Assembly: GCA_049515295.1 (NCBI GenBank)
Contig: JBEKUF010000003.1
Span: 1-56,662 of the forward strand
Source: Verrucomicrobiia bacterium
GTDB lineage: Bacteria > Verrucomicrobiota > Verrucomicrobiia > Palsa-1439
Direction of reading: 5' to 3'
DNA: 56,662 bases
Shown here piece after piece: positions 47,993-56,662 of the stretch. Under the pieces are notes generated by a model. It saw nothing but the letters and a program-made list of their open reading frames with translations. It searched no databases and had not been told where the DNA came from. Position numbers and translations under genes: made by a program. Every line of letters begins with the position of its first letter. Within the stretch, counting starts at the first letter, position 1.

Positions 47993-48162
47993 CTCTGTCA
48001 AGATTTGCTCCCCGCATTTGGCTAAAAACAGCCAATCACTCACCCGTTTTAGGGCATTTTCAGGTCGTCGGGTGAGTGCTCTTCGGGGCAAAAAAGAGCA
48101 ACGGGCTCGATAATGCGGGCAGTTGCCGAGGAGGAACGGGGCAGGACTCTGAACAGTCGAGC

Positions 48163-48224
48163 AACACCCCAACCCGCTTCATGGGCAGCAATGGCGGGCA
48201 ACGGCGGCGGGAGGCTATGGCAGG
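48163..48224 (+). repeat. G-rich co-oriented element, copy G1 (includes a remnant of the flp 3' flank)
   Basis: caacaccccaacccgcttcatgggcagcaatggcgggcaacggcggcgggaggctatggcagg; compare with 48441-48524. Confidence 0.75.
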
Positions 48225-48248
48225 CTACCTGCTACTCAGGGGAGGTTT

Positions 48249-48422
48249 ATGAATAAGCATCTGCAAAAACTTGTTCGGGTGATCACCAGGAAATCGGGTC
48301 AGAGTCTGGTCGAGTACGCACTGATTCTGGCATTGATTGCCGTGGTCGCAATCGTAGTCCTACGGGGTATCGGCGCCCACGTTAACAACACGCTGTCGAC
48401 CATCAACTCGAACCTGCCATGA
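48249..48422 (+). CDS. flp: Flp/Fap-family type IVb pilin (57 aa; below the ORF-track size cut-off)
   Basis: Manual translation: MNKHLQKLVRVITRKSGQSLVEYALILALIAVVAIVVLRGIGAHVNNTLSTINSNLP. G/xxxVEY processing motif plus hydrophobic helix. RBS GGAGG 5 nt upstream. Confidence 0.85.
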   Translation: MNKHLQKLVRVITRKSGQSLVEYALILALIAVVAIVVLRGIGAHVNNTLSTINSNLP

Positions 48423-48470
48423 CCTTCGGCTGAGGGCAGTCGCCAGCAGCCCTCCACCCCCACTCGATTC

Positions 48471-48524
48471 ATGGCAGGGGCGATGGCGGCGGGTTTGGGC
48501 GGAAACGGGCGGCGGGAGGCTGGC
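48471..48524 (+). repeat. G-rich co-oriented element, copy G2
   Basis: atggcaggggcgatggcggcgggtttgggcggaaacgggcggcgggaggctgg. Contains a strict G4 motif at 48491-48516. Confidence 0.8.
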
Positions 48525-48548
48525 AAACTGTATGCTTATTCCAGGAGC

Positions 48549-49013
48549 ATGGCTGCAAGTAATTGCCGTCAAAAACCGTGCATTCTTGCTATCGACGATG
48601 AGGAGATTTTTCTGGGCTTCCTCAAGGTGGCGTTGGAATGCTTGGGCTACAGAGTGTTTATTGCCTCCAATCCACTGGAAGCCCTCATGGTTTATGAAGA
48701 ACGTTGGCGAGAGATTGACATGGTGGTATTGGACTTCTTGCTACCCCCACTGACGGGCGACTTCGTCTTCGATGAACTCCAACGCTTCAATCCAGACGTG
48801 CGAGTCGTATTGCTGACGGGCTGTGATGAACCCGTGGCAGCCAAGATGTTTCAGAAAGGTCTGCGCGGCTACCTGAAAAAGCCCTTCAGCCCGACTGACC
48901 TTGCTCAGAAAGTGGAGGATGCAATCAGAACGCCATCGGCACGCCCCGCCACATCGCCACCACCCGCTCCAACTAACGGCGGCAGGGGGCAATGGCGGCG
49001 GGATACGGCTTGA
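48549..49013 (+). CDS. stand-alone response-regulator receiver domain protein
   Basis: ATG at 48549 after AGGAGC. CILAIDDEE...MVVLDFLLPPLTG...VVLLTGC...YLKKPF. The last ~12 codons are supplied by G-rich copy G3. Confidence 0.8.
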   Translation: MAASNCRQKPCILAIDDEEIFLGFLKVALECLGYRVFIASNPLEALMVYEERWREIDMVVLDFLLPPLTGDFVFDELQRFNPDVRVVLLTGCDEPVAAKMFQKGLRGYLKKPFSPTDLAQKVEDAIRTPSARPATSPPPAPTNGGRGQWRRDTA

Positions 49014-49029
49014 CGGCGGCGGGGGGGCA
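48977..49029 (+). repeat. G-rich co-oriented element, copy G3
   Basis: cggcggcagggggcaatggcggcgggatacggcttgacggcggcgggggggcag. Confidence 0.7.
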
Positions 49030-49121
49030 GAATTTAATTCTCCACCTCAATCTGCCGGGTCTGGCTTTTTCTGCTTTCCTCTCGCTTCCGCCAGAGTTCT
49101 AATGGAGTTCACACACATGGC

Positions 49122-49502
49122 ATGAAGACACAGTCACTTCGAAACTTCGACGTCGTCCTAAACAGGGTTCTGGACGTAGCCGGTTTCATTACGATGGCGG
49201 TTGTTCTGACCGCTATCGTTGCGAAGTTGGTCGGCTGGAAAGGAGACCCCGTTGCCCTGTTCCTGCGGCTTCCCCTTTCCGTTCTGATAGCGTGCGATAT
49301 TGCTATTAGCGGCATCAGTGCAGAAGTCGTTGCGTTGACCCTCAGAGCGTGTCTTCCCTCCAGGGCGAGGCATAGTGAGCGGACACGCTTTGGATTACTC
49401 GTCGTCTTATGGATTTTGTTTGCAGTCGTTCAGATTACGTTCTTGATACGGTACCAGCAACCGCTCCAACAATGGTGGCGAACATCAGGCGGCTTCTTTT
49501 AA
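49122..49502 (+). CDS. hypothetical small membrane protein (3-4 TM)
   Basis: 126-aa ORF with hydrophobic segments (VAGFITMAVVLTAIVAKLV, LSVLIACDIAISGISAEVVAL, FGLLVVLWILFAVVQITFLI). Confidence 0.45.
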   Translation: MKTQSLRNFDVVLNRVLDVAGFITMAVVLTAIVAKLVGWKGDPVALFLRLPLSVLIACDIAISGISAEVVALTLRACLPSRARHSERTRFGLLVVLWILFAVVQITFLIRYQQPLQQWWRTSGGFF

Positions 49503-49589
49503 CGGGTTCGGGCGGGAACTGGCGGCGAGGACTATGGGCGGGGGGACGGCGGCGGAGGCAATGGCGGCGGGATGCGGGCGGGTTGGGCG
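49503..49589 (+). repeat. G-rich co-oriented element, copy G4 (double length)
   Basis: cgggttcgggcgggaactggcggcgagg...ggcggcggaggcaatggcggcgggatgcgggcgggttgggc. Strict G4 motif at 49569-49587. Confidence 0.8.
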
Positions 49590-49611
49590 AAAAGATTGGT
49601 AGGCGGTTCGT

Positions 49612-49959
49612 TCAACTGCGAACTTGGGGATGCCGTCGTTGTGCAAAAGCATGCTCTAAGAACCCAATCGAGAACACAACGCCTCCAGCGATACCGCTGC
49701 ACAGCAAGACATCCGAATAAAACCATCCCCCGAATGTCGCCTCCAACCACCAGCGTGCCCAAGTCTGTCCTACAAAGAACGTGACCAGGCAAAACAACAG
49801 CAAGCAAGAACCGACGAGCAACAGAACTGATGATAGGCACCTCTGCTGTCGGAAAAGCGATGCCGACCCATAGACGAGGATGGGAGGTACGAGGGACAAG
49901 AGGAAGAGGGATAGTAAATAAAATGCCAAGCGACCGTTCATCATTGCCACTTCTACCAC
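49612..49959 (-). CDS. hypothetical small membrane protein
   Basis: 115-aa ORF with segments LAFYLLSLFLLSLVPPILVY, VLLLVGSCLLLFCLVTFFV and VLLCSGIAGGVVFSIGFL. Start uncertain. Confidence 0.4.
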   Translation of the reverse strand: MVEVAMMNGRLAFYLLSLFLLSLVPPILVYGSASLFRQQRCLSSVLLLVGSCLLLFCLVTFFVGQTWARWWLEATFGGWFYSDVLLCSGIAGGVVFSIGFLEHAFAQRRHPQVRS

Positions 49960-49982
49960 TGACGCAGGTTGGCTTCAAGTTC

Positions 49983-50014
49983 AGGCGGCAGTCCCGGCGG
50001 CGGGAGGCGGGCGG
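49983..50014 (+). repeat. G-rich co-oriented element, copy G5 (short)
   Basis: aggcggcagtcccggcggcgggaggcgggcgg. Confidence 0.6.
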
Positions 50015-50085
50015 TTGTTCCGCTGGATTGCCTGTGATAAAATGGACGCATGGATGACCGAGACCGGTGAGCGCGATTGCTGAAC

Positions 50086-51318
50086 ATGACGAGACTCACG
50101 ACAAAGGCGGTAATAGGCGCGCTGATGGGACTACTGATCTTGTCTGGCGGTCTCCTGTGGCTGCGCCGGCAACGGCCCTCACAGGCACAAAAGAACCAAC
50201 AGCCAACACAACCTTCGCGAATTGATACGCCCAAAACTGGACGGCCGATCAAGGCGAAACCGGGAACAATCGTGCTCCAAGAAGTGTCTGTATGGGACAC
50301 GAACCAACGATCACAAGTTTCAAGCGTTGGCAGTTACCAGTGTCCGCCCACGCCGAATTGGCCTGTCCAAGCTGCACAGGCCGTTCTCACCACGCCGGCT
50401 CACCAGTTGTTGGCACGATTGACTCAACTCACGTCTAACGTCAACTCCCTCAGCGGCGAGCAAGCTGCTGAGATCAACGACTTGCTGGCAAAACTTGCGG
50501 CGGGCGGCACGGCAGCCATTCCTGCGATCCGACAATTCTTGCAGGACGGTCAGGATTTCAGTTTCGATTCGATCGCCGGTGGCGATCTCGTCAATTACGG
50601 AACGATTCGACTCGGTCTCATTGACGCGCTGCAACAGATTGGCGGCCCCGAAGCGCTGGAACTGGCGGCATCCACTCTCCAAACCACGGCCGATCCTTTT
50701 GAAATCGCCTTTTTGAGCCGTTACCTCGAACAGCAAGCTCCCGGACAGTTTCGCGAACTCGAACTGACCGCTGCCCGCGAGTCGCTCGCCCTGGCTGGAC
50801 AAGTTCCAATCGCAGGTGTGAGCGCACTGTTTGAGCTACTTCAGGCATATGGCGATGAGAACGTCGTTTCCAGCCTGGAGAAAGCCGCGTCACAGTGGAG
50901 TTACTACGCAACCCTTGCGTTGGCGGGACTTCCGAACGGCGCAGGCATCCCAACTCTGATCAAATTGGCGCAAGACCCCGCTGTGAGTGCGATGGGCGCT
51001 GGCGATTTTGCGCTGCGCCCACTCGCGCAAGTGGCGCTGCTATATCCCGATGCAGCGAGCGCGCTTCTCGATGCAGCCCGGCAGAATCAAATCCCCGATA
51101 CAGCTTGGTCAACCGTTGCCGGTGCTCTGGCCGGAAGTTACTTGCAATACGGGAACCAGATTTTCGGCAGCACTTCTCCGGCATTGAATTGGTCGCCGGA
51201 GCAAGTGAGTCAGCAAATTGCACTCATCAACCAGTTGTTGACCGTCACCACGAGTCCCGCCGGTCGACAGGCACTCCAAGAGGCGTCGGCGTCGGTTTCT
51301 AGCAGGCTGACGAAGTGA
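50086..51318 (+). CDS. membrane-anchored protein with HEAT/armadillo-like helical repeats
   Basis: N-terminal TM (AVIGALMGLLILSGGLLWL), then Ala/Leu-rich helical repeats (AIPAIRQFLQDGQD; IDALQQIGGPEALELAASTL; GIPTLIKLAQDPAV). Confidence 0.45.
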   Translation: MTRLTTKAVIGALMGLLILSGGLLWLRRQRPSQAQKNQQPTQPSRIDTPKTGRPIKAKPGTIVLQEVSVWDTNQRSQVSSVGSYQCPPTPNWPVQAAQAVLTTPAHQLLARLTQLTSNVNSLSGEQAAEINDLLAKLAAGGTAAIPAIRQFLQDGQDFSFDSIAGGDLVNYGTIRLGLIDALQQIGGPEALELAASTLQTTADPFEIAFLSRYLEQQAPGQFRELELTAARESLALAGQVPIAGVSALFELLQAYGDENVVSSLEKAASQWSYYATLALAGLPNGAGIPTLIKLAQDPAVSAMGAGDFALRPLAQVALLYPDAASALLDAARQNQIPDTAWSTVAGALAGSYLQYGNQIFGSTSPALNWSPEQVSQQIALINQLLTVTTSPAGRQALQEASASVSSRLTK

Positions 51319-51349
51319 GGGGTCTATCGGTTTGCCATCACGCCGTGAG

Positions 51350-51379
51350 GGCAGGGGGGGGCTTGCGGGCGGGAGGTAG
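51350..51379 (+). repeat. G-rich co-oriented element, copy G6 (short)
   Basis: gagggcagggggggggcttgcgggcgggagg. It is followed by the hairpin CCCCGTCAGG tagtcgccg CCTGACAGGGG. Confidence 0.55.
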
Positions 51380-51456
51380 TCACCTCCAAAACCGGTTCGA
51401 ACTCAGCCCCGTCAGGTAGTCGCCGCCTGACAGGGGCTCACCTGTCAACTCTCTGC

Positions 51457-51768
51457 TCAGCGTTTGAGTCCATCGCGCCAAGCAATCGCTTCGAGTTCGA
51501 CCCGGACTGCGTCCATGACGGGAACCACGGGTCGTGCCTCAAATACAAAAGCAGGGAGGGTCGAGCAGAACTTGTGAACGGTCAACGGATCATCGCAGTC
51601 CACCAACATATACCCACCCCAATCGCCCACTCGCACCACGAACAACTCGATCTTGAAATTGTCGGGCGCCTTCCATTGACGGAAAACCTCCAGTATCCGC
51701 TTCTGGGCATTCTCGTATTCCATTGGCGATCCCTGCGGACGCTCGAACCAACTGATCATATACTTCAT
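51457..51768 (-). CDS. DUF3303-like small protein
   Basis: MKYMISWFERPQGSPMEYENAQKRILEVFRQWKAPDNFKIELFVVRVGDWGGYMLVDCDDPLTVHKF... matches my recollection of the DUF3303 pattern. Confidence 0.55.
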   Translation of the reverse strand: MKYMISWFERPQGSPMEYENAQKRILEVFRQWKAPDNFKIELFVVRVGDWGGYMLVDCDDPLTVHKFCSTLPAFVFEARPVVPVMDAVRVELEAIAWRDGLKR

Positions 51769-51920
51769 CGGTATTCTCCCTGTTTGCTCCGTGCTGCCAT
51801 TTAGGTTTGAGGTATTATCGCGAGACGGACGTTCACCCGATTGCGGAAAACCATCAAGGAGCGCACCTGCCGCGACCCGTGGACAGCAGTATAGAACTGA
51901 ACTGGGGAGATATGCAAGGG

Positions 51921-51990
51921 GGCGAGGATGGGGGTGGGTTTCAGGCAGAACCGGCGGCGGAATGCGGGCGGGGAGGGGCGGACTTGGCAG
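51921..51990 (+). repeat. G-rich co-oriented element, copy G7
   Basis: ggcgaggatgggggtgggtttcaggcagaaccggcggcggaatgcgggcggggaggggcggacttggcag. Confidence 0.75.
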
Positions 51991-51994
51991 GACG

Positions 51995-52249
51995 CTACCG
52001 GCTCCACCTGTTGATGCAACGTGACCGCTGACGTGGAGAACAACCCCGTGTGGCTAATTCGAGGAAGACTTCGTCGATGGTCTTTCGCTTAAAAATAGCA
52101 CGGTCGATAATTTCAGTGTAAACATCATCCTCGACCACGATGCGTTGCGTGGAGCCGTCTTTTTCGTCGGAGCAGGAGATACAGAGCAGTTCCCGTCTTC
52201 GGAGGAGGCGGAAGACATACGTCGAGATTTCCAGCACGTGTCCATTCAT
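51995..52249 (-). CDS. possible small protein (84 aa) with CxxC
   Basis: An internal ATG at 52249 within track ORF 51995..52531 gives MNGHVLEISTYVFRLLRRRELLCISCSDEKDGSTQRIVVEDDVYTEIIDRAIFKRKTIDEVFLE... GGAGAG lies about 15 nt upstream. Weak support. Confidence 0.3.
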   Translation of the reverse strand: MNGHVLEISTYVFRLLRRRELLCISCSDEKDGSTQRIVVEDDVYTEIIDRAIFKRKTIDEVFLELATRGCSPRQRSRCINRWSR

Positions 52250-52258
52250 GAGACCGAA

Positions 52259-52367
52259 CCTCGACTCTCCACGACAACGTAAGCCTGATTGCGGGAATAG
52301 CAAGTGGTGCTGGGGGCGGATTCGGGCGGGAACTGGCGGCGGGATGCGGGCGGGGGCCATGGGGGGA
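52259..52367 (+). repeat. solo copy of the box + G-tail part of the ~185-nt unit (copy G8)
   Basis: cctcgactctcc acgacaacgtaagcctgattgcgggaatagcaagtggtgctggggg cggattcgggcgggaactggcggcgggatgcgggcgggggccatgggggg. Strict G4 motif at 52341-52366. Confidence 0.85.
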
Positions 52368-52683
52368 TTATTCCGTATTTCCCCTCTTCTTGCCCGTTGG
52401 TGTCCCACTGCATGTAGGTGGTTTCCCCGCCAGTTAAAACAGGGTTTCCCCCCACATACAACCCGCCCCGAATCCGCTACTAATATACCGTGGTGTCGCG
52501 TCAATATGCACCTAGTACGCTTCGACGACAAATTTCATTGCGGCCCGGGACTGGTTTTGCTATCCTTAGCCATCCACTTGCTGTCGGCCTTGGTGACAGG
52601 CCGGGTATACGGAAGAGGATGGGGCTAACAACAGCCCGGCCACGCCGCAGGCCTCTGAGCCCCTCCAGAATGCACACGTCACA

Positions 52684-53661
52684 ATGACTGATTCAACATC
52701 ATTGAAAGAGACCGGCACCAAACGCCACCCCATTCTCGTGACGGGGTCGCCGCGGTGCGGCACGACTTGGGTGGGAAAGGTCATTGCCGCATCACCATCG
52801 GTCGGCTACATCGCGGAGCCGTTCAACCTTCTTTGCCGACCGGGACGCTGTGCGGCGCATTTCCCGTACTGGTTCTATTACATTTGTGAGGAGAACGAAG
52901 AACAGTACTTCCATCACATCCAGCGAACCTTGGGGTTTCAGTATCAGGTCTTGGAGGAACTCAAGGTGACCCGCACGCCACGGGACGTGGCGCGGATGGT
53001 GCGCGATTTTTCGCAGTTTCAGTTCTACCGGATTCGGCGTTGTCGTCCGTTGCTGCGTGATCCACAGGCCTTTTTCTCGGCGGAATGGCTGGCCCGGCGG
53101 TTTTCCTGCGACGTGGTGGTTGTGATTCGCCAACCGGCGGCGTTTGTCGCCAGCTTCAAATCGCTGCATTGGGAGCATCCGTTCGACCATTTCCTGAAGC
53201 AACCTCTGCTGATGCGCGATCACCTGTACCCGTTCGAAGATGAGATTCGCAAGTTCGCCGAACGGAAGCAGGCCGTCGTCGATCAGGCCATTTTGCTGTG
53301 GCGGTTGATTCACAGCGTCATCCTCCGCTACCAGAAGACGCACCCCGAATGGACGTTCGCGCGGCACCGCGATGTTTCGATCGACCCGATCGATGAATTC
53401 CGCAGGATTTTCGAGCGAGTGGATTTGCCCTATGGCACCCGCGAAGAGATCCATACGCGCCGCCTTTGCATGGCGGAGCCGAAACAGAAGGGGTACGCTT
53501 GGAATGAAGTCGTCCGCAACTCGGGGCAGAACTTGGATTTGTGGCGGACGCGGCTGACTGGAGATGAAATGCAACGGGTGGGCGAGAAGTGTTTCGACCT
53601 CGCACGCGAGTTCTACGGCGAAGAAGAACTGCATGACATCGGACTCATCCCAAGCGCCTAG
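52684..53661 (+). CDS. sulfotransferase family protein
   Basis: 5'-PSB-like loop (ILVTGSPRCGTTWVGKVI) and 3'-PB-like motif (VVVVIRQPAAFVASF). Confidence 0.7.
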   Translation: MTDSTSLKETGTKRHPILVTGSPRCGTTWVGKVIAASPSVGYIAEPFNLLCRPGRCAAHFPYWFYYICEENEEQYFHHIQRTLGFQYQVLEELKVTRTPRDVARMVRDFSQFQFYRIRRCRPLLRDPQAFFSAEWLARRFSCDVVVVIRQPAAFVASFKSLHWEHPFDHFLKQPLLMRDHLYPFEDEIRKFAERKQAVVDQAILLWRLIHSVILRYQKTHPEWTFARHRDVSIDPIDEFRRIFERVDLPYGTREEIHTRRLCMAEPKQKGYAWNEVVRNSGQNLDLWRTRLTGDEMQRVGEKCFDLAREFYGEEELHDIGLIPSA

Positions 53662-53894
53662 GTGTTCTCTTTTCCCTCCTAGCGGGGACGATGGGAATGC
53701 ACAATAAGACCTTGGTCGTACTGGATTGCTGTCCACGAGCGCCCCGCCCGTTCGTGGATTGAACTGGTATCTGACGAACAGATTCGGGAACTTTATCAAG
53801 AACAATGCAAGGCGGCGCAACATCCCCCCTCCGTCCCACCCTCGGCTCCAAAGCCTCGCTCGAACAATCCCGGTCATACTTGACCCGTTTGTTT

Positions 53895-53957
53895 GCGGGG
53901 GCAACAGCGGCATACGGCGGCGGAACTGGCGGCGGAATGCGGGCGGGGTGGGGGGCG
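53895..53957 (+). repeat. G-rich co-oriented element, copy G9
   Basis: gcgggggcaacagcggcatacggcggcggaactggcggcggaatgcgggcggggtggggggcg. Confidence 0.8.
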
Positions 53958-54441
53958 CTAACGCTGGAAGATGTGCTGATGCGGTTGCGCGTTAACCCAA
54001 CAAGTGTACGCGCTAATTGACAATCACTGAACACCTCTGTTCAACAAGCTGGACAGTCGGTTACCGCCTCTTGAGACGCACTGAAATCGCGTCGTCCCAG
54101 TAATCGGTTGATGCGCCGAACGTTGTGCGCGTACGGAGCTCGCGCCCTCGGCATCATTACTTGTTGGCACACTAACTGCCCTTGAAAAATGCGGAGACCA
54201 CGGCTCTTGTCCGAGCCTGTGGAAAGAAACTGGGATGAGGTCACAAGAATTGGAACAACAAGAGGAGTTGCCGTTCCGCGTCTGGTTGTTGCTGGGTGGC
54301 GGATTCTGGCTTGGATTGGTCGTGTACTTGGCGTTCCAGCTTCAAAGATGAATTTGCCTTCCCAGCGATACTCAGTGCCAATCAACTGGGTGTGAGGATT
54401 GACTGAGAGCGTGCCATAACCTCGGTTCAGTGGGAGAATGT

Positions 54442-54615
54442 ATGAAGAAGCGTCTGCAAAAACTCGTTCACGTGGTAACGAAGAAATCGGGTCAAAGCTT
54501 GGTCGAATACTCATTGATTCTGGCATTAATTGCCGTGGTCGCAATCGTAGTTCTCAGAGGTCTCGGTCACCACATTAACAACACGCTGTCGTCCGTCAAC
54601 GCAAACCTGCCGTGA
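54442..54615 (+). CDS. flp: Flp/Fap-family type IVb pilin, second copy
   Basis: MKKRLQKLVHVVTKKSGQSLVEYSLILALIAVVAIVVLRGLGHHINNTLSSVNANLP; 45/57 residues identical to copy 1 by hand alignment. Confidence 0.85.
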   Translation: MKKRLQKLVHVVTKKSGQSLVEYSLILALIAVVAIVVLRGLGHHINNTLSSVNANLP

Positions 54616-54665
54616 CCTTCGGCTGAGGACAGTTGCCGGCAGACCGACACCCCCACCCGATTCCT

Positions 54666-54840
54666 GGGGGGGCAACGGCGGTGGGGACAAACAAGAGGAG
54701 AGTCGAGTCTCTTCTCTCGCTTTTGAACCCACGAGCCGTTCCCAAGGGTGGGTATTTCTCCCTGAAACAATCTTACTTGACGAGAGGGTCGCTCAACTCT
54801 CCACGGCAACGTAAGCCCAATCGCAGGAACCGCCATGGGG
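54666..54840 (+). repeat. structured repeat unit a (G-run G10, A-rich linker, long hairpin, GTAAGCC box)
   Basis: Hairpin arms GGAGAGTCGAG (54697-54707) and CTCAACTCTCC (54792-54802), with one mismatch. Inner stem ACCCAC/GTGGGT (54727-54732 / 54748-54753). Box ACGGCAACGTAAGCCCAATCGCAGGAAC. Confidence 0.75.
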
Positions 54841-55060
54841 CAAACACCCCATTGTCCGCCGATGACGTGCCGCATAGACTCCGGCTCCATCGGGCTCCTG
54901 ATTGGCAGAGCCCGCAAAAGGTCGGGCATTATTTTGGCAGTGTAGGGATCGACATTCTCTCGCTTCGACATCCCCTGTCGAAGCACCAGCACATTGGGGG
55001 CGTGAACGGAGGCTACACTGCCATTATTATTCAAGTCAGGGAAATGACTGGGGGATAGTT

Positions 55061-55225
55061 TGGGGGGCATCGGCGGGAACAGGCGGGGAAAAAAAGGAGA
55101 GTCGAGGCTCAACTCTACGCAACCCCAGCCGCACCCAATGCGGCTGAACGATCTACCCTGCGAGAGCTTCTCGACTCTCCGCTGCACCGTAAGCCTGATT
55201 GCGGGAATAGCAAGTGGTGCTGGGG
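55061..55225 (+). repeat. structured repeat unit b (G11, hairpin, box)
   Basis: Arms GGAGAGTCGAG (55096-55106) and CTCGACTCTCC (55170-55180), perfect 11 bp. Inner stem AGCCGCA/TGCGGCT (55127-55145). Box GCTGCACCGTAAGCCTGATTGCGGGAATAGCAAGTGGTGCTGGGG. Confidence 0.85.
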
Positions 55226-55243
55226 CGTTTTCGGTTGAGATCA

Positions 55244-55430
55244 GGCGGCGGAGCAGGGCGGCGGGATCCGGCGGTCGGATCGCAACAGGGGAAAAACAAT
55301 CGGAGAGTCGAGGCTCAACTCTCACATGCGTGGACTACCCCCGCCCTTCGGGCGTTGCTGTTGAGAGGGTCGCTCGACTCTCCACTGCAATGTAAGCCGG
55401 ATCGGGGGGAATAGCAACCGGTGCCGGGGG
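55244..55430 (+). repeat. structured repeat unit c (G12, hairpin, box)
   Basis: Arms GGAGAGTCGAG (55302-55312) and CTCGACTCTCC (55373-55383), perfect 11 bp. Inner stem CGCCC ttc GGGCG (55342-55354). Box ACTGCAATGTAAGCCGGATCGGGGGGAATAGCAACCGGTGCCGGGGG. Confidence 0.85.
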
Positions 55431-55492
55431 CGGGTTTTGGGGAGAACTGGCGCCGGAACTGCGGAGCGGGGGCTCTAAAAGGGCGGCGAACA
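55431..55492 (+). repeat. G-rich co-oriented element, copy G13 (terminal)
   Basis: cgggttttggggagaactggcgccggaactgcggagcgggggctctaaaagggcggcg. Confidence 0.7.
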
Positions 55493-55671
55493 ATCCTGAG
55501 TGAAGAAGATACTTGGCGAATTCATTAGGTTTATCAGGGAATGGGGCTTAGGTTGTTGTTGGTCTCAGCGAGCTGTCTCACTCCGACCAAGACCCATAAC
55601 TGTTTAAACCACGCCATGAGTTGAGGGCGGTCGATCAGGCTGCCCCAACGCTCGTGGAAGAAAGTAGAACA

Positions 55672-55977
55672 ATGCTTGTGATGGAACCGGTTTCCGCTTC
55701 AGTCAAAGTCCCTGTACGGATAAAGATAAATTATCTGGAGCCCGCGCAGTTACACATTCCCGGCCCCGAGTTGCTTATCAACGTGGTCAGAAGGCGTGTC
55801 CGCCAACTCGTACAGGGGCATCGCCCTATCACGCAGACGGATGCGCGGATGGATTTCTCCGATATCGCGCTGAAGGAAATTAGCGAGGGCAAGCTCTTCT
55901 ACGAACTCGCCGATGAATCCGAAGCCGTGCCCGAGGCCAGCCAACAGCACGACGGAGTAACGCCAGCGCGTTTTTGA
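55672..55977 (+). CDS. rpoZ: second RNA polymerase omega-subunit paralogue
   Basis: MLVMEPVSASVKVPVRIKINYLEPAQLHIPGPELLINVVRRRVRQLVQGHRPITQTDARMDFSDIALKEISEGKLFYEL...; 58/72 core residues identical to the copy at 26605-26892 by hand alignment. Confidence 0.75.
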   Translation: MLVMEPVSASVKVPVRIKINYLEPAQLHIPGPELLINVVRRRVRQLVQGHRPITQTDARMDFSDIALKEISEGKLFYELADESEAVPEASQQHDGVTPARF

Positions 55978-56217: not shown

Positions 56218-56662
56218 TCAAGCGGCGTTGCGGTGATAGAAGTTGAGTAACCCGCCGAGGCGTTCCGTCTTCACCACAGCCCCTTCTTGCTGAAAGAGAC
56301 AAGCGCCGGGAAACGGAATGGCATTCTCGATACCCTGATGATTGCGTTCGGCGTGATAGTGCGCCAAGTACTCCCGGATCACATACTGCAAGGAGTTTTC
56401 GCCGAAGAGGACGAACTGCTCCACGCATTCCATCTTGATGATCTTCACGAACCGTTCCGCAAACGCATTCAAGTTCGGGGAATATGGCGGAAGTTTCACG
56501 ACGGCGATACCGGCGGCGTTCAGAATCCCGTCGAAAGATCGAGTGTATTTCGCATCGCGGTCATGGATCAGGTAATGCGCTCCGCCAGGTTCCCCCTCCC
56601 AGCCGGTCACATTTCGTGCGGTCTGCTTCATCCACTCCTCGTTCGGATTCTGGCCCATTCCC
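56218..56662 (-). mobile_element. transposase, rve (DDE integrase-core) C-terminal part; gene starts beyond the right edge
   Basis: ...YLIHDRDAKYTRSFDGILNAAGIAVVKLPPYSPNLNAFAERFVKIIKMECV...YLAHYHAERNHQGIEN, typical of IS481/IS3-like integrase-core transposases. Confidence 0.8.

What the first reader, a model, noticed from the sequence alone, without database searches (positions are those of the whole stretch)
54666..55492. Three gene-less ~185-nt units with a conserved 11-bp outer stem, different inner hairpins, a GTAAGCC box and a G-tail
Between flp2 and rpoZ2 the G-rich element becomes part of a larger unit repeated with a ~185-nt period (starts 55061, 55244, 55431, and an earlier copy at 54666).

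Each unit contains, in order:
- a G-run;
- an A-rich linker;
- GGAGAGTCGAG;
- a 60-85-nt variable segment;
- CTCGACTCTCC;
- the box AC.GCAAYGTAAGCC.GAT.G.GGGAATAGCAA..GGTGCYGGGG;
- the next G-run.

The outer arms pair perfectly over 11 bp in units b and c, and with one mismatch in unit a. The variable segment differs in sequence between units, yet each contains its own local hairpin: ACCCAC/GTGGGT in a, AGCCGCA/TGCGGCT in b, CGCCC/GGGCG in c.

Structure is kept while sequence changes. That is what one expects of a functional RNA or of a folded single-stranded DNA recombination substrate, and not of random repeat decay. No ORF is conserved across the units.
Basis: seen in the sequence. Interest (0 to 1): 0.8.

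Follow-up and report, generated by a model that had tools for sequence, protein, structure and literature searches.

The report
Tandem small-RNA genes, read backwards
The three repeated hairpin units are most likely three small non-coding RNA genes on the opposite strand, each with its own promoter and terminator, belonging to an undescribed multi-copy RNA family of peat-bog Verrucomicrobia.

Summary
In detail: three gene-less units (54697-54802, 55096-55180, 55302-55383) each have an 11-bp outer stem, different inner hairpins, a conserved box and G-rich flanks.

The anatomy only makes sense on the minus strand.
- The "GTAAGCC...GGAATAGCAA box" is a promoter-like element: TTGCTA, 16-17 nt, TACNTTGC.
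- The RNA would start at GGAGAGUCGAG.
- The "A-rich linker" is the U-tract that follows the closing helix.
- The "G-tail" is a C-rich spacer outside the RNA.

The same box and 5' word drive protein genes on that strand, including an 84-aa ORF at 52249-51995 and its orthologues.

Collection scans recovered 89 distinct units of at least 8 core types. Nearly all come from peat or bog Verrucomicrobiia MAGs and peat, bog or soil metagenomes, and they often lie in mixed tandem arrays. All three window units have orthologues.

Non-Watson-Crick positions in the outer stem are G.U 51 versus A.C 16 in the minus sense. There are no target-site duplications, no Rfam match, and no reverse transcriptase or integrase nearby.

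Weak points: there is no transcript evidence, almost no compensatory covariation within types, and the function is inferred. This is a new sRNA family of moderate interest.

The parts
55392..55417 (-). Promoter-like box of unit c. Minus strand reads TTGCTATTCCCCCCGATCCGGCTTAC. The -35-like TTGCTA is at 55417-55412 and the -10-like TACATT at 55394-55389.
   Evidence: Located. Position-wise conservation across 128 distinct upstream regions is.
55302..55383 (-). Unit c predicted RNA, 82 nt. 5' arm at 55383-55373, core with the CGCCC-GAA-GGGCG hairpin, 3' arm at 55312-55302.
   Evidence: Fold z = -3.89. Covariance-model hit of 35.2 bits on minus versus 24.6 on plus. Orthologues are L115_11312, L055 and L140.
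55290..55301 (-). T-rich tail of unit c (GATTGTTTTTCC on minus). Together with the stem it acts as a terminator.
   Evidence: The terminator-like scan reports a site at 55323-55303 on minus. Across the family the tails average 6.2 T in 12 nt.
55189..55213 (-). Promoter-like box of unit b (TTGCTATTCCCGCAATCAGGCTTAC on minus).
55096..55180 (-). Unit b predicted RNA, 85 nt. 5' arm at 55180-55170, core with the AGCCGCA/UGCGGCU hairpin, 3' arm at 55106-55096.
   Evidence: Fold z = -4.45. Covariance-model hit of 75.6 bits on minus versus 27.1 on plus. 17 b-type orthologues are aligned in A1.
55085..55095 (-). U-tract of unit b (TTTTTTTCCCC on minus).
   Evidence: The terminator-like scan reports a site at 55116-55098 on minus with tail CCTTTTTTTC.
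54811..54835 (-). Promoter-like box of unit a. The -10 part is intact (GGGCTTACGTTGC) but the -35 is degenerate (TGGCGG instead of TTGCTA).
   Evidence: Orthologous a-type units in L050, L035 and L015 have the intact TTGCTATTCC.
54697..54802 (-). Unit a predicted RNA, 106 nt. 5' arm GGAGAGUUGAG at 54802-54792, 3' arm at 54707-54697. The U8.G wobble counts as a pair only on this strand.
   Evidence: Fold z = -1.94. Covariance-model hit of 40.8 bits on minus versus 15.6 on plus. 13 a-type orthologues are aligned in A2.
54685..54696 (-). Weak T-rich tail of unit a (TCTTGTTTGTCC on minus).
55214..55289 (.). Spacer between the unit c terminator and the unit b promoter. It is G-rich on plus and C-rich in the RNA sense. 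Similar spacers lie at 55040-55084, 54655-54684 and 55418-55492.
   Evidence: In related loci the 32 nt beyond the T-tract are 46% C. Internal period of about 11-13 nt.
52250..52303 (-). Fourth copy of the box (52303-52279) plus the 5' word GGAGAGTCGAG (52270-52260). Here they form the promoter and leader of a protein gene.
51995..52249 (-). 84-aa ORF (MNGHVLEISTYVFRLL...) driven by that box. Orthologues with the same box and leader occur in at least 14 related loci.
   Evidence: The gene was called independently in 6 assemblies. No Pfam or NCBIfam family matches it.
54836..55095 (.). Intervening block made of two other repeat families. It is not part of the RNA units.
   Evidence: blastn against the related loci.

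Best explanation
The units are three independently transcribed small non-coding RNA genes on the minus strand, in the order c, b, a. They lie convergent with flp2 and divergent from rpoZ2.

Each unit consists of:
- a conserved promoter-like box (-35-like TTGCTA, 16-17 nt, -10-like TACNTTGC);
- an inferred start at or within 1-2 nt of the first G of GGAGAGUCGAG;
- an 82-106-nt RNA whose 5' and 3' ends pair in an 11-13-bp terminal helix that encloses a type-specific core (a second CUCUC/GAGAG helix plus one or two hairpins);
- a U-rich tract directly after the helix, so the closing helix and the U-tract together act as an intrinsic terminator.

The G-rich (C-rich in sense) repeats are spacers between units.

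The 5' word is also the first 11 nt of several mRNAs driven by the same box. Its sequence is therefore constrained for another reason (promoter-proximal or leader function), and the 3' arm of each RNA has to stay complementary to it. That would explain why the helix is conserved in sequence rather than covarying.

Inferred, not shown: the RNAs are trans-acting regulators of the small-protein regulon that shares the promoter. In this reading the variable core provides specificity (base-pairing or protein binding), and the invariant helix provides termination, stability or a protein handle.
For: 1. Box orientation. In peat Verrucomicrobiia MAGs and metagenomes the same box plus GGAGAGTCGAG precedes start codons of unrelated protein genes on that strand:
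   - the 84-aa gene in at least 14 loci;
   - the MNKQAAEMAGR gene, a signal-peptide gene and a Gly-zipper gene;
   - a PurA-like gene behind a variant of the box, without the 5' word.

2. Box conservation outside the search pattern. The metagenome scan specified only GGCTTAC..TGC plus the arm, yet TTGCTATTCC at -33..-24 is about 90% conserved.

3. Family size. There are 89 distinct units of the form arm-core-arm followed by a T-rich tail, averaging 6.2 T and 1.4 A in 12 nt.

4. Strand test. A search symmetric for both strands gives, in the terminal helix, 990 Watson-Crick, 51 G.U and only 16 A.C positions in the minus sense.

5. Covariance model. A model built from b-type orthologues finds exactly the three units in the window, and each scores higher on minus.

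6. Conservation of each unit type. Each window unit has orthologues in other species with 98% of cells paired, against 34-53% when the 3' partners are slid. All one-sided changes are wobble-compatible.

7. Non-coding. Orthologue lengths differ by 1-2 nt steps (84, 85, 86, 94, 95, 100-103 ...), which excludes coding.

8. Box specificity. In the 56-kb window the box occurs only at these four sites, plus a related -10 at rpoZ2.
Against: - No transcript data of any kind could be consulted.
- The simple sigma-70 scan does not flag the box, because its hexamers match the E. coli consensus at only 7-8 of 12 positions.
- Within-type alignments show zero compensatory double changes. Shuffle controls are uninformative because divergence is low. 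Only 1-3 double changes appear in small or uncertain alignments.
- The interiors of the short family members fold no better than shuffled sequence (mean z = -0.45).
- A long-range helix enclosing 60-85 nt is an unusual terminator. A local terminator hairpin exists in units b and c but not across the whole family.
- Unit a has lost its -35 in this organism.
- No target or protein partner is identified.
Confidence: 0.7

Rival explanations
1. The array is one long minus-strand precursor. In this reading the box is an RNA-level element, such as a processing site or protein-binding site, rather than a promoter. Individual hairpin RNAs are released by processing or by partial termination.
For: - The whole 45 nt upstream of the arm, including the 'spacer' positions, is unusually conserved for a promoter.
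- UUGC...GCAA/GCGA within the box could form a small hairpin, and the A/G variation at -20 keeps the pairing.
- The box fails the E. coli-type promoter scan.
Against: - The box stands alone in front of single protein genes with no unit upstream, for example at 52303 and in L010 and L028.
- Every unit ends in a T-rich tract.
- The -35-like and -10-like blocks have canonical spacing and canonical distance to the conserved 5' word.
- The small hairpin is not kept in unit c.
Confidence: 0.1
2. The units are orphan promoter-leader-terminator cassettes left after duplication and decay of small genes. They persist as neutral DNA or as transcriptional insulators between flp2 and rpoZ2, and their RNA product has no function of its own.
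For: - The same promoter and 5' word head real protein genes.
- Promoter reuse in front of unrelated genes is documented in prokaryotes (PMC3575422, found).
- The interiors of many family members are barely structured.
- Unit a's promoter is damaged.
Against: - Each core type is conserved across several species with its helices intact (A1, A2).
- At least 8 core types are maintained, often in mixed tandem arrays in different genomic contexts.
- The 3' arm stays complementary to the 5' word in 97 distinct units. Decay would not maintain this.
Confidence: 0.1
3. The units are miniature inverted-repeat mobile elements (Correia/ERIC-like). Their terminal inverted repeats are the 11-bp arms, and promoter activity is incidental.
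For: - They have perfect 11-bp inverted termini, are multi-copy and intergenic, and have variable interiors.
- Other MITE-like repeats lie next to them, and an IS transposase lies at the window end.
Against: - There are no flanking direct repeats. Among 89 units, none shows a match of k>=4 immediately at the arms, and with offsets the count equals the chance expectation.
- The flanks themselves (box on one side, T-tract on the other) are conserved parts of the unit.
- The 5' arm occurs without a 3' arm at mRNA starts.
- Types are orthologous across species rather than near-identical within a genome.
- No arm sequence occurs at the IS.
Confidence: 0.05
4. It proposes a plus-strand RNA, or a folded single-stranded DNA site (attC- or retron-like), that includes the GTAAGCC box and the G-tail.
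For: - The hairpins also fold on the plus strand (z = -5.0, -3.5 and -1.7).
- The G-rich runs could form G-quadruplexes (sequence inspection).
Against: - G.U:A.C is 51:16 in favour of minus.
- Covariance-model scores are higher on minus.
- On plus there is no promoter-like site and no U-tract.
- No integrase or reverse transcriptase is called within about 7 kb.
- The box functions as upstream DNA of minus-strand genes.
Confidence: 0.03

Closest known systems
Sibling or tandem bacterial sRNA genes with their own promoter and Rho-independent terminator (e.g. Qrr1-5, OmrA/OmrB, AbcR1/2; from general knowledge)
   Same: They are short intergenic genes with no ORF. Each has a shared regulated promoter and a stem plus U-tract at the 3' end. 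Paralogues lie in tandem and are conserved across related species.
   Different: Known siblings share the seed or core and differ elsewhere. Here the termini (promoter, first 11 nt, last 11 nt) are invariant and the cores differ, with at least 8 types. The terminator stem is formed by the very 5' and 3' ends of the RNA. The same promoter and 5' word also head mRNAs. There is no Rfam family, and no expression data or chaperone link.
Y RNAs / YrlA bound by Ro (Rsr), and other RNAs closed by a 5'/3' terminal helix (from general knowledge)
   Same: They are about 100-nt RNAs whose ends pair in a sequence-conserved helix, with variable internal modules and several paralogues side by side.
   Different: There is no match to the Rfam Y_RNA/YrlA models. 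No rsr gene is seen near the units. No tRNA-like module is present. The conserved helix is also explained by its 5' strand being an mRNA leader word.
Reused or 'mobile' promoters (Promoter reuse in prokaryotes, PMC3575422)
   Same: A nearly identical ~45-nt upstream segment sits in front of non-homologous downstream sequences, both RNA genes and several protein genes, in several species.
   Different: Here the reused block includes the first 11 transcribed nucleotides. In the RNA genes it is matched by a complementary 3' end.
MITEs with promoter or terminator activity (Correia elements, ERIC, BOX; from general knowledge)
   Same: Both are intergenic multi-copy ~100-150-bp units with inverted termini that form RNA hairpins.
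   Different: There are no target-site duplications. Flanks are conserved, the cores are type-specific and orthologous, and no cognate transposase is present.
Integron attC sites and retron msr-msd
   Same: Both have imperfect inverted repeats enclosing variable sequence. In retrons, a terminal a1/a2 helix closes a structured non-coding RNA.
   Different: There is no IntI, no GTTRRRY core sites at the boundaries, and no cassette ORFs. No reverse transcriptase lies downstream. A U-tract ends the unit.

Membership tests
Free-standing bacterial sRNA gene | Own promoter immediately upstream | tested here: inconclusive
   A conserved -35-like/-10-like box lies at a fixed distance from the conserved 5' word and drives ORFs elsewhere. 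It is below the threshold of the E. coli consensus scan, and no transcription start data exist.
Free-standing bacterial sRNA gene | Intrinsic terminator (stem followed by a U-tract) at the 3' end | tested here: met
   T-rich tails follow the closing helix in 97 distinct units, averaging 6.2 T in 12 nt. The terminator scan reports sites for units b and c on the minus strand. Unit a's tail is weak.
Free-standing bacterial sRNA gene | No conserved ORF | tested here: met
   Orthologue lengths differ by non-multiples of 3, and no start codon is shared.
Free-standing bacterial sRNA gene | Conserved sequence and structure across species | tested here: met
   Alignments A1 (17 sequences) and A2 (13 sequences) have 98% of cells paired, against 34-53% in the slid controls.
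Free-standing bacterial sRNA gene | Statistically supported covariation | tested here: not met
   A1 and A2 contain 0 pairs with changes on both sides, and the shuffle controls equal the observed values. There is 1 double change in A3 and 3 in the uncertain A4. The support comes from wobble bias instead.
Free-standing bacterial sRNA gene | Detectable transcript of the predicted size and strand | not testable with these tools
   No RNA-seq resource is available. The contig look-ups returned only metagenome assemblies.
Any Rfam 15 family | Score at or above the family's gathering threshold | tested here: not met
   The window and 14 related loci yield only tRNAs. The E-value-mode hits on 54400-55700 are all far below gathering scores.
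MITE | Terminal inverted repeats | tested here: met
   The 11-bp arms are inverted repeats.
MITE | Target-site duplication flanking the ends | tested here: not met
   Among 89 units, none shows a match of k>=4 immediately at the arms. With offsets of 0-3 nt the counts are 2/0/0 for k=4/5/6, against 2.6/0.6/0.04 expected.
MITE | Ends related to those of an autonomous IS in the genome | tested here: inconclusive
   The arm word is absent from the partial IS at 56.2-56.66 kb. The whole genome is not available.
Integron attC / gene cassette array | IntI tyrosine recombinase and GTTRRRY core sites | tested here: not met
   No Phage_integrase hit occurs among the called genes within about 7 kb. The unit boundaries read GCAGT|GGAGAG and CTCTCC|TTT.
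Retron ncRNA (msr-msd) | Reverse transcriptase gene downstream in the same transcript | tested here: not met
   Each unit is followed by a T-tract, a C-rich spacer and the next promoter. No RVT domain occurs in the neighbourhood.
CRISPR array | Short identical repeats with unique, non-conserved spacers, plus cas genes | tested here: not met
   The 'variable segments' are conserved orthologous types across species. The repeat period is about 200 nt. No cas genes were called nearby.

The most novel reading that the evidence does not exclude
The invariant 11-nt word GGAGAGUCGAG (W) and its complement CUCGACUCUCC (W') may form a regulatory code in these bacteria.

- W is the 5' end of a set of small-protein mRNAs and overlaps their ribosome-binding region.
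- W' sits in the leader of at least one other conserved gene.
- The tandem RNAs carry both words, self-paired.

The RNAs would then work in one of two ways. Either they are conditional anti-leader or decoy molecules: once the helix is opened, W' blocks W-mRNAs, or W titrates a W-binding factor. Or they are Ro/Y-RNA-like scaffolds whose invariant helix is a protein handle and whose swappable cores (for example the 5x GCAGUU variants) sequester different partners.
Probability: 0.15. Interest if true: 0.7.

Novelty: new member of a known kind. Interest (0 to 1): 0.5.

Why it matters
Almost nothing is known about RNA regulators in Verrucomicrobia, an abundant phylum in peat and soil that matters for carbon cycling.

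This finding gives a concrete family that can be detected from sequence:
- at least 89 distinct genes;
- at least 8 core types;
- about 5-15 box-bearing sites per genome;
- a defined promoter motif, a predicted start and a predicted stop;
- a linked regulon of small proteins.

It can be tested directly in existing peat metatranscriptomes. It also provides a candidate strong or regulated promoter and terminator pair for a clade that has no genetic tools.

Tried and rejected
- Rfam. The gathering search on the whole window, the E-value search on 54400-55700, and the gathering search on 14 related loci gave nothing but tRNAs.
- Plus-strand RNA. Rejected on wobble counts, covariance-model scores and the lack of a terminator on that strand.
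- ECF-type or sigma-54-type promoter readings of the box, by inspection. The downstream 'CGT' is not conserved on plus. The GG..GC spacing is 2 nt too short for sigma-54.
- MITE. The target-site duplication test was negative.
- attC, retron, CRISPR. The defining partners are absent.
- Inner-core fold z-scores as a strand discriminator. Sense and antisense gave similar z (-0.83 versus -0.91). The '82 of 89 more stable in sense' result is a composition effect, so it was not used.
- Transcript-like contig ends. Look-ups of exact proteins returned only metagenome contigs.
- Function of the 84-aa gene. No Pfam or NCBIfam family matches it. Structure prediction was not attempted, because the alignment that makes a prediction reliable would have needed a whole-database protein search, not justified for a side question.
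- Literature searches for Verrucomicrobia sRNAs found nothing relevant.

Full report
**Observation.** The region between the second flp pilin gene (54442-54615, Pfam Flp_Fap) and the second rpoZ-like gene (55672-55977, RNA_pol_Rpb6 / omega) contains three units with the reported anatomy.
- The arms GGAGAGTCGAG/CTCGACTCTCC occur 8 times at <=1 mismatch in the window, against 1.2 expected.
- The box follows each right arm.
- The stated 185-nt period is that of the G-runs. Arms and boxes are 203-206 nt apart for b->c and 378-399 nt for a->b.
- A fourth box with a right arm but no left arm lies at 52260-52315.

**The key to the anatomy is the fourth copy.** On the minus strand it reads TTGCTATTCCCGCAATCAGGCTTAC-GTTGTCGT-GGAGAGTCGAGGTTCGGTCTC-ATG, and an 84-codon ORF follows (52249-51995). 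The box therefore sits where a promoter would sit.
- TTGCTA is -35-like. After 16-17 nt comes TACGTT / TACGGT / TACATT, which is -10-like.
- The invariant A and T of the -10 and an extension TTGC are conserved.
- GGAGAGTCGAG begins 5-6 nt after the hexamer, where transcription would start.

**The three units read on the same strand.** Each becomes: box, 8 nt, GGAGAGUCGAG, a 60-84-nt core, CUCGACUCUCC, then a T-rich run (TTTTTTTCC, GATTGTTTTTCC, TCTTGTTTGTCC). The consensus scan finds terminator-like sites on the minus strand at exactly the 3' ends of units b and c.

**Related sequences.** The window is identical to contigs from several peat and soil metagenome assemblies.
- A box-only pattern scanned over GTDB species representatives hit 45 loci. 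About 35 are Verrucomicrobiae/Verrucomicrobiia MAGs from bogs, palsa and peat. Most of the rest are chance matches without arms; one, binned as Solirubrobacterales (L042), does carry the units and is probably mis-binned.
- In those MAGs the box precedes, always in the same orientation:
  - orthologues of the 84-aa gene;
  - a 75-aa gene (MNKQAAEMAGR...) with a ~80-nt leader;
  - a signal-peptide gene;
  - a Gly-zipper peptide;
  - in variant form, a PurA-like RNA/ssDNA-binding protein and a 130-aa protein;
  - many ORF-less hairpin units.
- A second scan of JGI metagenomes used only the -10 part plus the 5' word and returned 102 stretches.
- Together the loci give 121 units, 89 of them distinct. 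All have the form 5' word, 32-88-nt core, complementary 3' word, T-rich tail.
- The units fall into at least 8 core types and commonly form mixed tandem arrays (for example L011, L099, L113, L115, L128).
- All three window units have orthologues: 13 a-type, 17 b-type and 4-5 c-type.
- The three types are themselves distantly related. They share the second helix CUCUC/GAGAG and the segment UUGGGAGCGGCUCGGGGGUU.

**Which strand?** I repeated the unit search with a criterion symmetric for the two strands, counting G.U and A.C equally.
- In 97 distinct units the terminal helix has 990 Watson-Crick positions, 51 G.U and 16 A.C in the minus sense. A plus-strand RNA or a DNA hairpin would not give this bias.
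- The tails average 6.2 T and 1.4 A in 12 nt.
- A covariance model built from b-type orthologues finds only the three units in the 56.7-kb window. Scores are 75.6, 40.8 and 35.2 bits on minus against 27.1, 15.6 and 24.6 on plus.

**How good is the structural evidence?**
- The predicted transcripts fold with z = -4.45 (b), -3.89 (c) and -1.94 (a).
- Within types, 98% of cells are paired, against 34-53% when partners are slid. Every one-sided change is wobble-compatible.
- There are no compensatory double changes in these alignments, and the shuffle controls are uninformative, because the sequences are close relatives. Formal covariation is not met.
- One C-G to U-A exchange with a U.G intermediate occurs in a 92-nt type. 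Three exchanges occur in an uncertain c-type alignment.
- Between types the second helix changes in a compensated way (CUCUCG/CGAGAG, CUCUCA/UGAGAG, ACCCUC/GAGGGU), but those alignments are not secure.
- The cores of the short types are hardly structured.
- The terminal helix does not covary because its 5' strand is also the invariant first 11 nt of the mRNAs driven by the box. The 3' strand simply tracks it.

**What was excluded.**
- No Rfam family matches the window or 14 related loci.
- No target-site duplications flank the arms.
- No integrase, reverse transcriptase or cas gene lies in the neighbourhood. The only mobile-element gene is a partial rve-family transposase at the window end, with no arm-like ends.
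- Orthologue lengths vary in steps of 1-2 nt, which excludes coding.
- The box is not a general promoter. In the window it occurs only at these four places, and a related -10 lies in front of rpoZ2.
- Exact matches number about 4-6 per MAG.

**Mechanism.**
- Shown: the sequence architecture, its conservation, its orientation relative to protein genes, the wobble bias, and the T-tracts.
- Inferred: that the box is an active promoter, that transcription starts at GGAGAG and stops at the U-tract, and that the RNAs act in trans.
- Most likely these are regulatory sRNAs co-expressed with a regulon of very small proteins. The variable core would act as the specificity module.
- The 3' word is complementary to the 5' end of the regulon's mRNAs, a region that includes the likely ribosome-binding GAGG of the 84-aa gene.
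- The 3' word also occurs in the leader of another conserved gene.
- Some short family members carry up to five GCAGUU repeats, a motif also present in an mRNA leader.
- These observations suggest anti-leader, decoy or protein-sponge roles. They remain speculation.

**G-rich element.** This is a separate repeat.
- It has an internal period of about 11-13 nt.
- It fills nearly every intergenic gap from 48.1 to 55.5 kb, always G-rich on the plus strand whatever the gene orientation.
- It is C-rich in the RNA sense beyond the U-tracts in related genomes.
- It may be a DNA-level site, a Rho-loading region or an upstream promoter element. This was not resolved.

**Verdict.** The best reading is an undescribed family of tandem sRNA genes in peat Verrucomicrobiia: a new member of a known kind, of moderate interest, and directly testable with existing metatranscriptomes.

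Noticed in passing
window 54836-55095: The gap between unit a's promoter and unit b's terminator is built from two other repeat families found in many related loci. The first is a ~50-nt piece with the palindrome ATGGGGTGTTTGCCCCAT, which replaces unit a's -35. The second is a ~150-nt element with 18-nt inverted ends (54928-54945 / 55013-55030), present in up to 3 copies per locus elsewhere. It may be a MITE.
   Followed up: partly
window 48160-55492 (e.g. 48473-48524, 49510-49590, 51952-51992, 52304-52368, 53914-53967): G-rich repeats (GGCGGCGGnAT..., internal period about 11-13 nt) occupy almost every intergenic gap of the last 8 kb. They are always G-rich on the plus strand regardless of gene orientation. 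None occurs in an intergenic gap of the first 48 kb.
   Followed up: partly
L010, L017, L030, L031, L040, L046, L047 (variant box TTGCTATTCTnCCGATTGGGCGTAC): A conserved 130-aa gene (MYRQRIG...) has the 3'-arm word CCTCGACTCTCC about 45 nt into its leader and lacks the 5' word. The complementary word is therefore also used outside the hairpin RNAs.
   Followed up: no
L053, L054, L104 and the 62-63-nt units (e.g. L011:2366, L027:877): The short family members carry repeated GCAGUU/AGUUG motifs, five copies in the 83-86-nt variants. The same motif occurs in the leader of the MNKQ gene. This is reminiscent of protein-titrating RNAs.
   Followed up: no
window 55520-55600 (+): The region upstream of rpoZ2 has a related -10 (GGGGCTTAGGTTG). 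Its leader (GGTCTCAGCGAGCTGTC.CACTCCGACC) is shared with a box-driven 111-aa gene in other species.
   Followed up: no
window 48250-48423 and 54442-54615: There are two Flp pilin paralogues, and about 60 nt of sequence downstream of each is duplicated. In relatives, sRNA units also lie tail-to-tail with an flp gene (L076).
   Followed up: no
window 56218-56658 (-), continuing in L001 13535-14570: A partial rve-family (DDE) transposase of an IS element lies at the window edge. It is unrelated to the units.
   Followed up: partly
L042 (CAWIWX010000005.1, binned as Solirubrobacterales): This contig carries the same units as the Verrucomicrobiia contigs L011, L037 and L048. It is probably mis-binned.
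   Followed up: no
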